A DNA stretch of 64,000 bases. Source: Eledone cirrhosa. Lineage: Eukaryota. Under the pieces are notes generated by a model. It had not been told where the DNA came from and did not search any database. It saw only the letters and a program-made list of their open reading frames with translations. The stretch spans positions 4,340,001 through 4,404,000 of the forward strand of contig OZ024746.1 of assembly GCA_964016885.1 (NCBI GenBank), given 5' to 3'. The position numbers were made by a program, and so were the translations under genes. This document shows positions 2,911 through 48,090 of the stretch, in pieces; position 1 is the stretch's first letter; every line of letters starts with the position of its first letter.

Positions 2911-3147
2911 GTGACAGCTCACACATATGCAGGTTTAGCTGGCCTCCTCCAAGGTATATCTCGTTGGAGGTGTCTTGGGTAATTTAATGATAGGAACCCC
3001 AGTCCCCTCATTTCTACAGCTGAGTAAACTGGAGCAACGTGAAATAAAAGTCTTGCTCAAGGAAACAACACATCAGCGGGTCCAAGAATTGAACTCACAA
3101 CCTTTCGATTGCAAGCCCAATGCTCTAACCACTAAGCTATGCGCCTT
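2911..3147 (-). mobile_element. tRNA-derived SINE (family 2)
   Basis: Minus strand reads ggcgcatagcttagtggttag (A box)...gagttcaattc (B box)...ccttgagcaagac core; near-identical inverted copy at 48733-48980. Confidence 0.8.
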
Positions 3148-15684: not shown

Positions 15685-15877
15685 TAACGAAGGAAATGTG
15701 GTAAGGAACCAGGTGGATCATAACGCACCAAAGTACTCAATACTTAGGGTAGTAGAGTGGGTAATAGGAACGAGTAGGATCCCGACGGCTGAGCTCAAGC
15801 CGTTTCGACGGCTAATTCTGGAGTCCAGAATTAGCCTTCGAAACGGCTTGAGCTCAGCCGTCGGGGTCCTACTCGTT

Positions 15878-21463: not shown

Positions 21464-21865
21464 GTGTCTACATGTTCTGGAGAAGTCCCTATAGCTTGAG
21501 GGGAGTTCACATCTTCTTGTGTTGCTACTGTCCATATATCTTGAGGGTCTCATTCAGGCATAATTTGCATATGCAAGATCCCCCTTTATCGGGTGGTACT
21601 TTCCTGATTATGTACCAGGCCAGAGAGTACGGGGTCCTGTCCAACTTAAGCTTCCAGATCAGGTCGGAGAGAGCCTTGCTTTTCCTTTTGGCCTCCTTAT
21701 TGAAGGAATGGCGATGGTTATACCAGCGGTCTTTAAAGCTCGTTGATGTGGCTCCTATGTAGAGGTGTTCGGAGTTGGGGTTTTAACCCTACAACGGTAT
21801 ACTAGGTTCTTCTTAAGGCATTCATTACCAAAGGGGCATGATTCGGGGTTTCTGCAGTTGCAGAG
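21464..21865 (-). pseudogene. PLE GIY-YIG endonuclease with Zn-finger-like linker (Naiad/Neptune-type), frameshifted
   Basis: Manual translation LCNCRNPESCPFGNECLKKNLVYRCRVKT /fs/ EHLYIGATSTSFKDRWYNHRHSFNKEAKRKSKALSDLIWKLK..YSLAWYII..CKLCLNETLKI..SRTCRH. Confidence 0.88.
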
Positions 21866-22107
21866 GGTGGTCGACCTCTGCGTGCCTAAATTGGGGTTCC
21901 CGTTAGGTGTTACATGGTGGTCTTCCCCCAGGCACGGTGGGGGGGGGGGTCCTCGGGTCTGTTTGGGTTTCTTGGGTGGGCACTGGGTCCCCCCTTCCCT
22001 CCTTTCACATGGTTCTGCTGAGTGCTTGTATTGCCATCTTCTGGTTGTGTGTGGTTTTTAAGCCGACTCCTGTTGATGCTAGCTATGTGTAATATATATA
22101 TATATAT

Positions 22108-27390: not shown

Positions 27391-27453
27391 GGAACCAGTA
27401 AGACCCCGACAGCTGAGCTCAAGCCGTTTCGACGACTAATTCTGGACAGAATT
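27389..27453. mobile_element. Truncated copy of the 15685/44942 fold-back element
   Basis: taggaaccagtaagaccccgacagctgagctcaagccgtttcgacgactaattctg-ga-cagaatta. Confidence 0.8.
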
Positions 27454-42698: not shown

Positions 42699-43166
42699 GA
42701 GTGTGTTATTGTTGTTCTCACTGCAGCTAAAGTGCTATGATATTTAGATATTTCGTTACTAATAAGACAACAGAATAATTAAAACAATTGCATTCAATGA
42801 TGTTTATAAATAGGATTGTGCGCAATGACAACATTTTAATGAGAACAAAAGAAAGAAAAACGGAAATAGAAGTGAAATATGTTTTAGTTGAAGATAAAGA
42901 CGGGCCGAGTAAATAAGATGCTGCATTAGTAAAGAAAACATCCAGAAAATTTAATAAATTTCAGTCTAATTGATAAATGCAAACCAAGAGTCTTAGTCAT
43001 CGATATTACATGCAATCTACCACATACAGGTTTCAGCATGTATAGTCGTGTACACGAATAAACACACACTCACAAACACACACATAAACATACGCACACA
43101 GGCAGGCTTGCATACGTCAAATTTACACACAAATGTATATATGTATGTACGTGTCTACACACATAT

Positions 43167-43237
<71 letters not shown>

Positions 43238-43365
43238 GTAGGAGGTGAGTTTTATTGTAGTACAATAAAGCAATGCAGATATCGGATAAGAAGCACTCTA
43301 CAGTTTGTAGGACTGGAGTATACATAATATATAAGATCAAAAGATGGTTAAAGGAGTTCCATGTA

Positions 43366-43432
43366 TTTTATTATGCGCATTTCAAAAACAAACATCATCA
43401 TGCAATAATATTTGTGTTTTCATCAGATAAAA
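43366..43432 (-). ncRNA. Type I hammerhead motif (mirror copy of 44803-44869)
   Basis: Reverse complement of the 44803 motif. Confidence 0.8.
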
Positions 43433-44802
43433 CAGGAGGACATGATATGAAGGCTAAAAAACACTTGTGGATAGTGCAGTTTTAAATCAACATATGAGAA
43501 GTAATTTTAGATTGATGTGTGATATTGGGAAAAATATTTTATTTAGAGAGGGGGGGGGGTAGAAAGGATGAAAAAAAGGGGAGGAGATGAGAGTGAAGGT
43601 GGAGAGGGAGAGATGGGTGATAGAGAGAAAGAGATACTTTTTATAACTGAGAAAAGATATATTGTTTTACATAGAGAGGTTGAAAACCGTTGGAAGATAT
43701 TGTATAAATTAAAAGAATTTGAAAATTAACGAAGGGAAAAATATGTACGAAGAAGGAGAGGGAGTTAATATGTATTGAGATTAAAAAGTTTGATGATAGA
43801 GAGAAAAGAATAATGGATTGCGGATGAATATTCTAACGTCAAAAAAATGTGTGTATGTTTACAAGTATTATGGAAATTTGAAAATTAACGAAGAGAAAAA
43901 ATTATTAAGGTTTGTGTATTGAAGGATTTGAGAAAAATAATGTGAAGTTAAGGTTTGTATATTGAAGGAATTGATAATATGTGCGAAGAAAGAGTTATCA
44001 ATTCTTTATCAATTTAGAATCTTTTCTCAAAGGCACATATACATACACCTCTTTTAAAATATACCCATCTTCCTACCTTACTTCAAATACACTCTATAAT
44101 ACTTGTTTACTCATTACCCTCACTCTATCTTCACCTTGTAAAATCCTTCGTAACATATACATTTGTTTTGACGCCAGATTATTCATCCTTAATTTATTAT
44201 TTTTTTCTCCCCATCATCTAACTCATTCTTAATACATATTAACTCTTTCTTCGCACATATTATCAATTCCTTCAATATACAAACCTTAACTTCACATTAT
44301 TTTTCTCAAATCCTTCAATACACAAACCTTAATAATTTTTTCTCTTCGTTAATTTTCAAATTTCCATAATACTTGTAAACATACACACATTTTTTTGACG
44401 TTAGAATATTCATCCGCAATCCATTATTCTTTTCTCTCTATCATCAAACTTTTTAATCTCAATACATATTAACTCCCTCTCCTTCTTCGTACATATTTTT
44501 CCCTTCGTTAATTTTCAAATTCTTTTAATTTATACATTATCTTCCAACGGTTTTCAACCTCTCTATGTAAAACAATACATCTTTTCTCAGTTATAAAAAC
44601 TATCTCTTTCTCTCTATCACCCATCTCTCCCTCTCCACCCTCACCCTCATCTCCTCCCCTTTTTTTCATCCTTTCCACACCCCCCTCTCTAAATAAAATA
44701 TTTTTCCCAATATCACACATCAATCTAAAATTACTTCTCATATGTTGATTTAAAACTGCACTATCCACAAGTGTTTTTTAGCCTTCATATCATGTCCTCC
44801 TG

Positions 44803-44869
44803 TTTTATCTGATGAAAACACAAATATTATTGCATGATGATGTTTGTTTTTGAAATGCGCATAATAAAA
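44803..44869 (+). ncRNA. Type I hammerhead motif with palindromic stem III and ~16-bp stem II
   Basis: ttttat CTGATGA aaacacaaatattatt-gcat-gatgatgtttgttttt GAA ATGCGCAT A ataaaa. Confidence 0.8.
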
Positions 44870-44899
44870 TACATGGAACTCCTTTAACCATCTTTTGAT

Positions 44900-44941
<42 letters not shown>

Positions 44942-44944
<3 letters not shown>

Positions 44945-45145
44945 CGAAGGAAGTGTGGTAAGGAACCAGATGGACCATAACGCACCAGAATACTCAATAC
45001 TTAGGGTAGTAAGTGGGTAATAGGAAAATGTTTAACCCCGACGGCAGAGCTCAAGCCGTTTCGACGGCTATTTCTGAACCCTGGAGTCCAGAAATAGCCG
45101 TCGAAACGGCTTGAGCTCTGCCGTCGGGGTTAAACATTTTCCTAT
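44942..45145 (-). mobile_element. Fold-back PLE pseudo-LTR relic (sister of 15685)
   Basis: Same left terminus taacgaagga..; palindrome 45020-45145 containing GAAACGGC..GCCGTC. Confidence 0.8.
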
Positions 45146-47155: not shown

Positions 47156-47599
47156 GTGTATGTGTGTGTGTATGCGTGTATGAATGAGTGTTTATGGACA
47201 ACAAGAAAATACATCGATTTTAAATTCAACGCAGTCACTAATAAATGTTAATTTTAAAACTACACTTCGAAATTTATATTTATCTGAAAACCAGAACGAA
47301 CGATAATTCCTTCTATATTGAAATTTACGAGTAGACTGGTGGATGTCTGAATCTGCAGAAATTGTATTTATTAATGTGTAAACTTTATCTTGTCGCTGAT
47401 TCATAAAACAAACGCCAAATGTTTCTCTTTCAGAACAAGGACTTCGTTTAAAACGTCGGAGACTTTCACACAAAAACACTTATCAACTTAACTTTTAACG
47501 GGCTATACCACATGAAACCACATGAGGGAGGCATTCTTGCGACTGTAAAATAATGTTTTCCTAAATCAGCAAATTTTTACAACGAACAGCCCACTAGTA

Positions 47600-48090
47600 A
47601 ATATACCGTACCAGCTCTTGCAATTCTTGCAGTTAATTCAGCCTCCTGCATTCCGTCATTCGTGAATATAGCCCCGAGATACTTGAACTTCTCCACCTGC
47701 TTCAGTGGAACTCCATTCACATGTAGAGTGCACTGTGCAGGCTTCTTTGAGAGGACAAGTGCCCTAGTTTTTGTAGCACTTATTTTCATTCCAGCCATGC
47801 AACACTCAGCATCAAACCTATCAAGTGCAAGTCGGAGATCACCTTCTGTCGAGTTAAGTAACACCATGTCGTCTGTAAATTCCACCCGAGTGATGTTACA
47901 CCTGCCAGTCGTGATGCCACTTCAAGCCTGGCTGCGCATGTCAGTCCTGTTCATGAAAATAATAAACAGGAGAGGTAACAGTACGCACCCTTGGCGGAGT
48001 CCAACTCCCACATTGAATGGTTTCGATTTATCCGACACAAATACACAGGCATTCATATAGAGACATCAGAGCAATAAGTAGCTGACCATC
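47600..48090 (-). pseudogene. RTE reverse transcriptase fragment
   Basis: KPFNVGVGLRQGCVLLPLLFIIFM..EFTDDMVLL..GMKISATKT..KQVEKFKYLG. Confidence 0.92.

What the first reader, a model, noticed from the sequence alone, without database searches (positions are those of the whole stretch)
43236..44905. 1.6-kb inverted repeat whose two arms each carry an intact-looking hammerhead
Seen: ~665-bp near-identical arms. Each holds ttttat-CUGAUGA-(~16-bp stem II with G-U pairs)-GAA-AUGCGCAU-A-ataaaa, oriented outward. The left arm continues ~95 bp further to an apparent 3' terminus. It looks like a fold-back DNA transposon, but the ribozymes point to inverted PLE pseudo-LTRs. Inference: read-through transcription would yield a long dsRNA (ADAR or siRNA substrate) that sequesters the ribozyme; the high arm identity suggests a recent event.
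Basis: partly seen in the sequence, partly recalled or inferred. Interest (0 to 1): 0.8.

Follow-up and report, generated by a model that had tools for sequence, protein, structure and literature searches.

The report
Head-to-head Penelope-like retrotransposon ends
This inverted repeat is two head-to-head copies of the end of a Penelope-like retrotransposon, one of thousands of such insertions in this genome and a known layout; the copies suggest both halves were likely reverse-transcribed from the two broken DNA ends at once, using two start sites on a likely capped RNA.

Summary
The repeat is real: arms 43327-43997 and 44240-44908, 662 of 671 identical, each with a minimal hammerhead motif. 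It is not a fold-back DNA transposon. It is a 5'-truncated, head-to-head insertion into (TA)n of a 3.5-kb Penelope-like element with Hydra-clade motifs (telomerase-like RT, DKT, CxCx5C). One arm has an 83-nt tail, the other lacks it; the 'spacer' is more 3' UTR. This layout is published, and common here: at least 8,600 tailed ends, and 66 of 87 scored have an inverted partner. The family as a whole is more informative than the locus. Partners pair tailed with tail-less (56 of 58; 22 of 22 in a second family) and share subfamily alleles (10 of 478 sites discordant, 40% between loci). Many arms stop at one fixed 5' site, often with an extra G (51 of 100); few stop at the ribozyme cut. This favours priming from both target ends at two start sites on a capped RNA over self-priming. 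One RNA versus two is open; the second family lacks the arm-length bias. Ribozyme activity and dsRNA are untested.

The parts
43163..43235 (.). (TA)n target, left flank
43236..43997 (-). tailed arm: 762 nt of the element's 3' end, 5'-truncated in the 3' UTR
   Evidence: matches the 3' end of long copies at 91-98%
43236..43318 (-). 83-nt tail, present on this arm only; ends at the family's fixed tailed end
   Evidence: 6,722 + 1,921 exact tailed junctions
43362..43434 (-). minimal type I hammerhead motif, left copy; predicted cut 3' of 43372
43495..43495 (-). position of the family's fixed 5' end (inferred transcription start), left arm
43998..44908 (+). tail-less arm: about 911 nt, from 3 nt after the ORF stop to the TA-rich stretch before the tail
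43998..44239 (+). single-copy part ('spacer'): 5' part of the 3' UTR, held by the tail-less arm only
   Evidence: continuous with the rest in L015-L017, L020-L022, L024, L030
44740..44740 (+). position of the family's fixed 5' end (inferred transcription start), right arm
44801..44873 (+). minimal type I hammerhead motif, right copy; core 44809-44815 and 44852-44855; predicted cut 3' of 44863
44902..44943 (.). (TA)21, right flank, overlapping the arm end and shared with the neighbouring insertion
44944..45145 (.). neighbouring head-to-head insertion of a second Penelope-like family: tailed arm 44944-45085 (-), tail-less arm 45086-45145 (+)

Best explanation
The feature is a 5'-truncated, head-to-head double insertion of the 3' end of a Penelope-like retrotransposon with Hydra-clade motifs in a (TA)n repeat, likely made when both ends of the cut target primed reverse transcription at two different start sites on the element's likely capped RNA and the two cDNAs were joined at their far ends. 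Shown: family, ORF, TA targeting, pairing of a tailed with a tail-less arm, a shared source subfamily, a fixed 5' end with excess G, and few ends at the ribozyme cut. Inferred: (1) the endonuclease cuts both strands of (TA)n; (2) one 3' end primes at the UA-rich stretch before the tail, likely by microhomology, the other at the tail end; (3) both cDNAs run toward the RNA 5' end, where the extra G would be a copy of the cap; (4) they join end to end, often by annealing their self-complementary ATAT ends; (5) most likely both come from one RNA, the tail-primed enzyme trailing the other. The hammerhead is a passenger of the pLTR, predicted to be weak as a monomer.
For: Full copies hold a 797-aa ORF with DKT, RDDG, CxCx5C (L032) and LIY..YFG; the model's top PDB matches are telomerase RTs. 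Of 90 tailed ends taken in order on C1 (87 scored), 66 have an adjacent inverted arm: 56 tail-less, 2 tailed, 8 with the end out of view. Picked from the tail-less side, 15 of 15 seen partners run into the tail, and 22 of 22 in a second family. In the window each arm has sequence the other lacks, so neither is a DNA copy of the other. Arms agree at 14 subfamily sites: 10 of 478 discordant against 39.9% between loci; 11 rare variants are shared by both arms. The fixed 5' end has 3,271 matches preceded by a non-element base, G in 51 of the first 100, against 2 of 30 and 9 of 75 at two control sites (p 1.5e-10). 14 of 20 double-fixed-end joins are perfect palindromes with no loop. The tail-less arm reaches further 5' in 31 pairs against 2 and 9 against 2 in the other sample. 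Tailed arms stop at the second start site in 16 of 33 truncations (p 3e-5). In vitro, an anole PLE cuts and extends both strands and starts RT at two internal sites bracketing the tail (PMC11167929).
Against: The second family shows no length bias (6 against 7). The pairing is not absolute: 2 of 58 pairs are both tailed, and 3 head-to-head pairs among 83 distinct tail-less ends are both tail-less (read by eye). Allele agreement also fits two RNAs from one active source, or later conversion between arms. 7 of 16 G junctions viewed could be templated by the partner arm or a local duplication. The pile-up near the second start site overlaps an AT-rich stretch that favours microhomology joins. Few of 30 read-through (near full-length) junctions have their upstream pLTR starting at the fixed 5' end, none by BLAST boundary, which a single pLTR-to-pLTR RNA does not explain. 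Samples come mostly from one chromosome, need exact patterns, and under-count long arms. No biochemistry.
Confidence: 0.6

Rival explanations
1. Same two-ended priming, but from two RNA molecules of one source locus held by a protein dimer, with the first and second strands using different start sites.
For: Explains 21 of 56 pairs in which both arms reach the fixed 5' end, the perfect palindromes, and the both-tailed or both-tail-less exceptions. Needs no strand displacement over 670 nt. The anole PLE protein is predicted to be a dimer. No length bias in family 2.
Against: Gives no reason why the tail-less arm reaches further in 31 against 2 and 9 against 2 pairs, nor for tailed arms stopping at the second start site. 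Several subfamilies exist, yet arms almost never mix.
Confidence: 0.22
2. Self-priming (fold-back): a single cDNA, or an antisense RNA as Arkhipova et al. 2013 proposed, folds back and copies itself.
For: Explains allele agreement directly. On an antisense template it could also give a longer tail-less arm. It is the published reading of junction palindromes (PMC3846280).
Against: Fold-back of a sense-derived cDNA predicts the tailed arm to be the longer; the opposite is seen. Loop-free palindromes and arms with no overlap at all (such as L093, L071, L077, L079) are hard to make by a hairpin. A fixed end with extra G fits a capped sense 5' end. A sense RNA is the template in vitro.
Confidence: 0.12
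3. A fold-back or TIR DNA transposon, or an assembly artefact.
For: Long near-perfect inverted arms.
Against: Arms are asymmetric and variably truncated, and continue into an RT ORF in long copies. Thousands of copies share the layout. Contigs of independent runs show the tail-less TA junction and opposite-strand joints.
Confidence: 0.01
4. The locus acts as a host dsRNA hairpin that feeds ADAR or small-RNA pathways and locks up the ribozyme.
For: A transcript through the whole insertion would fold into about 670 bp of duplex (715 pairs, -1133 kcal/mol).
Against: Nothing marks this copy out among thousands. None of 73 ORFs scanned matched a host family above cut-off. Single-arm differences in 37 pairs show no A-to-G excess (2 of 34). 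The inferred start sites face outward and would not transcribe both arms.
Confidence: 0.1

Closest known systems
Hydra clade of C-terminal EN+ Penelope-like elements (Craig et al. 2021, 10.1101/2021.04.23.441226; passages read)
   Same: DKT, CxCx5C linker, no CCHH in the endonuclease, hammerhead present, insertion into (TA)n; inverted 5'-truncated copy with a tail on one end, as in their Fig. 2 legend.
   Different: Unit 3.48 kb rather than under 3 kb; Asn-rich linker insert; tail 83 nt rather than 30-40; about ten thousand insertions. No tree with their reference sequences was built.
Penelope of Drosophila virilis and Pen2a of Adineta vaga (PMC2377424, PMC3846280; passages read)
   Same: Partial tandems, inverted pLTR, optional tail on one inverted pLTR, promoter and start site inside the pLTR, palindromes at the inverted junction.
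   Different: Other clade; 31-34 nt tail; target-site duplications visible there, hidden here by (TA)n; self-priming on an antisense template was proposed there.
PAc (Poseidon) of Anolis in vitro (Frangieh et al. 2024, PMC11167929; parts 1-2 of 4 and passages read)
   Same: Two internal RT start sites bracket the tail; both target strands cut and extended; AT-rich target; AC-rich start; hammerhead cleavage not needed.
   Different: There the tail lies in the ORF start; here the ORF starts 78 nt after it. The text read does not link the two sites to head-to-head insertions. Here the tail-less site has TA homology to the target.
Minimal hammerheads of metazoan PLEs (Cervera and De la Pena 2014, PMC4209133; parts 1-2 of 4 read)
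   Same: Type I core, long stem II, palindromic stem III for dimers; pairs on opposite strands 100-700 bp apart were already noted.
   Different: Stem II is 15 bp and closes with A-U, not the conserved G10.1-C11.1; stem I is 8 bp.
L1 twin priming (recalled, from no call)
   Same: Both target strands prime on the element RNA and give an inversion.
   Different: L1 pieces do not overlap; here the two cDNAs overlap, so an inverted repeat results, and both start sites are fixed.

Membership tests
EN+ Penelope-like element | single ORF with telomerase-like RT | tested here: met
   797-aa ORF in L047; top Foldseek matches are TERTs, E 6.5e-8. Pfam and PDB sequence searches were blank.
EN+ Penelope-like element | C-terminal GIY-YIG endonuclease | tested here: met
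   LIY..YFG aligned with VVY..YIG of 16 relatives. Indirect: a window fragment 39% identical to this domain hits Pfam GIY-YIG at E 2e-4, just under cut-off; the protein itself has no Pfam hit.
EN+ Penelope-like element | partial tandems forming pLTRs | tested here: met
   182 read-through junctions; L047; L111-L140
EN+ Penelope-like element | inverted 5'-truncated copy, tail on one end | tested here: met
   66 of 87; 56 of 58 mixed pairs
EN+ Penelope-like element | hammerhead motif in the pLTR | tested here: met
   motif and fold; activity not tested
EN+ Penelope-like element | target-site duplication | tested here: inconclusive
   both flanks are (TA)n
Hydra clade | DKT in place of DKG | tested here: met
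   D123-K-T
Hydra clade | CxCx5C linker | tested here: met
   present in L032, changed in L047; present in relatives
Hydra clade | no CCHH motif in the endonuclease | tested here: met
   one Cys, not a pair, between LIY and YFG
Hydra clade | insertion into (TA)n | tested here: met
   8,643 tailed TA junctions against 182 read-through; only TA and read-through junctions were asked for
Hydra clade | generally under 3 kb | tested here: not met
   unit 3,479 nt; a tendency in the paper, not a strict criterion
Hydra clade | RT phylogeny with reference Hydra elements | not tested
   reference sequences not held
minimal type I hammerhead | core CUGAnGA, GAAA, UH and stems I and II | tested here: met
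   None of 14 subfamily sites lies in the core; recurrent stem changes swap G-U and A-U and keep pairing (one search read).
minimal type I hammerhead | G10.1-C11.1 closing stem II | tested here: not met
   A-U
minimal type I hammerhead | selection on the core, compensatory changes | tested here: inconclusive
   5 of 938 departures in the core against 112 of 10,783 at other non-polymorphic columns; no two-sided change
minimal type I hammerhead | self-cleavage | not testable with these tools
   ends at the predicted cut are rare
fold-back or TIR DNA transposon | symmetric terminal repeats, DDE partner | tested here: not met
   asymmetric, variably truncated arms linked to an RT ORF
non-LTR retrozyme | tandem arrays of short hammerhead units | tested here: not met
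   short copies are single or head-to-head in the 90 loci scored

The most novel reading that the evidence does not exclude
Penelope-like elements insert by overlapping twin priming: both ends of the cut target prime on one capped RNA, one at each of the two start sites that bracket the tail, and the two cDNAs meet head to head. This one rule would explain the inverted pLTR, the one-sided tail and the junction palindromes, without antisense self-priming or ribozyme cleavage; the extra G marks the cap.
Probability: 0.45. Interest if true: 0.68.

Novelty: new member of a known kind. Interest (0 to 1): 0.42.

Why it matters
The locus itself is ordinary. How Penelope-like elements make tandem and inverted insertions with a one-sided tail is named as open in Craig et al. 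2021 and Frangieh et al. 2024. This young family with about ten thousand insertions gives counts that separate the models: mixed pairing, same-source arms, a capped fixed 5' end and little use of the ribozyme cut. They predict a simple result in the existing in vitro assay. Thousands of short perfect inverted repeats are also a possible dsRNA source if transcribed, which is untested.

Tried and rejected
Rfam: no hammerhead hit at gathering score or E up to 10; this does not count against a minimal motif. Pfam on the ORF and PDB sequence search: blank. Idea that the fixed 5' boundary marks a sister family with another upstream sequence: rejected, the upstream is target or partner arm. Idea that the two arms of the window come from two subfamilies: rejected, the five clean differences are private. 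Idea that ribozyme cleavage sets 5' ends: 75 matches at the cut site, of which 17 of 30 viewed are real junctions, against 30 matches (11 of 15 real) at a control site and 3,271 at the fixed site; at most about twofold, with AT microhomology as a confound. The first tail-less count (416) caught one junction variant only; the wider pattern gave 5,512 forward and 7,904 reverse, the reverse partly double-counted. RNA: no RNA holder listed, so no evidence on expression or editing; contigs of four runs of unknown kind were laid and show presence only. A-to-G excess: not seen. Host gene: none detected among 73 ORFs; small exons would be missed; flanks L298, L299 were fetched but not analysed. Earlier findings: none returned. 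Papers linking Penelope to twin priming or a cap-derived G: none found in searches; only hit lists were seen, subscription journals are not covered, and no supplements were opened.

Full report
Observation. The arms are 43327-43997 and 44240-44908, 662 of 671 identical. Each holds the same hammerhead-like motif facing outward. The left arm has 83 further nt at its outer end. Both flanks are (TA)n. Rfam's models do not hit the motif.

What it is. The left 305 nt gave 968 candidates in the 3.0-Gb genome, the 40 scored being 99-100% identical. In long copies the 242-nt 'spacer', the right arm and the tail form one continuous 3' end. Upstream lies one ORF, 797 aa from ATG in L047. It has DKT, RDDG, LIY..YFG and, in L032, CxCx5C, shared with 16 unnamed relatives at 30-39% identity. 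The predicted fold (pLDDT 78.7) best matches telomerase RTs. These motifs, the lack of CCHH and TA targeting are the features given for the Hydra clade; no tree was built. Positions q below are on the natural copy L047:4022-7500. The window's insertion is a tailed arm of 762 nt joined head to head to a tail-less arm of about 911 nt that starts 3 nt after the stop codon.

How common. Exact tailed TA junctions number 6,722 and 1,921, read-through junctions 182, tail-less junctions 5,512 on the forward strand alone. I scored 90 of the first 100 tailed ends listed on C1; 3 gave no usable hit. Of 87, 66 have an adjacent inverted arm. The layout is the majority form and is described in Craig et al. 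2021, Arkhipova et al. 2013 and, as opposite-strand hammerhead pairs, in Cervera and De la Pena 2014.

Pairing rule. Of 58 pairs with both ends in view, 56 join a tailed to a tail-less arm and 2 are both tailed. From the tail-less side (30 loci; 10 long and not scored, 5 with no partner seen) 15 of 15 partners run into the tail. A second family, whose copy lies next door at 44944-45145, gives 22 of 22 (30 loci; 2 long, 6 with no partner seen). Both end types are about equally common, so independent choice would give about half same-type pairs. Exceptions exist: 3 both-tail-less pairs among 83 distinct ends, read by eye.

Same source. In 37 pairs with enough overlap the arms disagree at 10 of 478 subfamily sites, against 39.9% between loci, and share 11 rare variants. 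Two RNAs from one locus, or later conversion, would also give this. The window's arms share one haplotype; their five clean differences are private and lie within 110 nt, which I cannot explain.

Fixed 5' end. Many arms stop at q3220, 70 nt before the ribozyme core: 29 of 87 tailed and 32 of 56 tail-less arms; 3,271 genome matches are preceded by a non-element base, 5,434 by C, which includes palindromic joins. The base before is G in 51, T in 39, A in 10 of the first 100 (counted by eye), against G in 2 of 30 and 9 of 75 at control sites. An untemplated G as the copy of the cap is recalled from L1 work and comes from no call. Of 16 G cases viewed, 7 could be templated. Where both arms reach this end, 14 of 20 joins are loop-free palindromes, as expected if two identical ATAT ends anneal. 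Penelope has an internal promoter in its pLTR. Against a simple picture, upstream pLTRs of 30 read-through junctions do not start at q3220.

Geometry. Among the 56 mixed pairs the tail-less arm reaches further 5' in 31, the tailed in 2, both reach q3220 in 21, and 2 are equal; the other sample gives 9, 2 and 4. Tailed arms stop at q3363-3400, just at the tail-less start site, in 16 of 33 truncations (p 3e-5). This fits a trailing enzyme behind a leading one on one RNA, and is opposite to fold-back of a sense cDNA. The second family does not repeat it (6 against 7), and long tailed arms are under-sampled.

Ribozyme. The core is complete, recurrent stem changes keep pairing, and no subfamily site lies in the core; selection on it is not shown. 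Stem III is 2 bp in a palindrome that pairs 8 bp with a second copy, the dimer type with low activity in vitro. Stem II closes with A-U. An inverted partner is antisense and cannot complete the dimer. Ends at the predicted cut are rare, in line with the anole element, where cleavage is not needed.

Mechanism. Most likely both target ends prime, one at the UA-rich site before the tail and one at the tail end, on a capped sense RNA, and the cDNAs join head to head (0.6; two RNAs 0.22; self-priming 0.12). Frangieh et al. showed both-strand cutting and two start sites in vitro; the text I read does not tie them to inversions. Searches found no paper that does; coverage is limited and supplements were not opened. 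Of 10.64898/2026.07.22.740005 I saw the abstract and outline only.

dsRNA. A read-through RNA would form a long duplex, but no RNA run was listed, no host exon was detected and no A-to-G excess is seen. It remains untested.

Verdict. Real, correctly guessed as inverted pLTRs, a new member of a known kind. The locus is ordinary; the family-wide counts make an open mechanistic question testable. Interest 0.42.

Noticed in passing
window 44944-45145; L143, L144, L155, L296: Second Penelope-like family with the same head-to-head layout (76-nt tail; 792 exact tail-less junctions). Long copies fold into a full type I hammerhead with the U3-A8 core variant, G-C closing stem II, a 5-bp stem III and GUC. 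Its short copies start inside the stem II loop, so they hold only half the ribozyme. An endonuclease 29-48% identical to the focal one lies in the inverted arm of L296.
   Followed up: partly
window 15687-15867 and 27403-27447: Further copies of that second family, one again head to head.
   Followed up: no
window 21537-21895 (-): Fragment of a related PLE endonuclease, about 40% identical; Pfam GIY-YIG E 2e-4.
   Followed up: no
window 47580-47921 (-): Reverse transcriptase fragment, Pfam RVT_1 E 1e-5.
   Followed up: no
window 3077-3146 (-): tRNA-like sequence at the Rfam cut-off (29 bits), probably a SINE head or pseudogene.
   Followed up: no
window 43592-43700 and 44537-44645: All five clean arm differences cluster in 110 nt; three are T-to-C on the right arm; the other 520 or so nt are identical. 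Unexplained.
   Followed up: partly
L195 (same place as L132): A short tandem whose pieces start at the predicted ribozyme cut, three times in one locus: a possible rare product of cleaved RNA.
   Followed up: no
L200 and L201: Both arms of one insertion share a rare 3-nt deletion at the ribozyme cut site.
   Followed up: no
L047 protein 580-657: Asn-rich, low-confidence insert between RT and endonuclease, absent from 16 relatives; similar inserts are described for rotifer Penelope.
   Followed up: no
L006, L007, L019, L027, L029: A subfamily with a 111-nt unit of the 3' UTR repeated in tandem.
   Followed up: no
window 43255-43273 (-): The tail holds a short hairpin just before its AC-rich end, recalling the AC-rich stem-loop where the anole element starts RT.
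   Followed up: no
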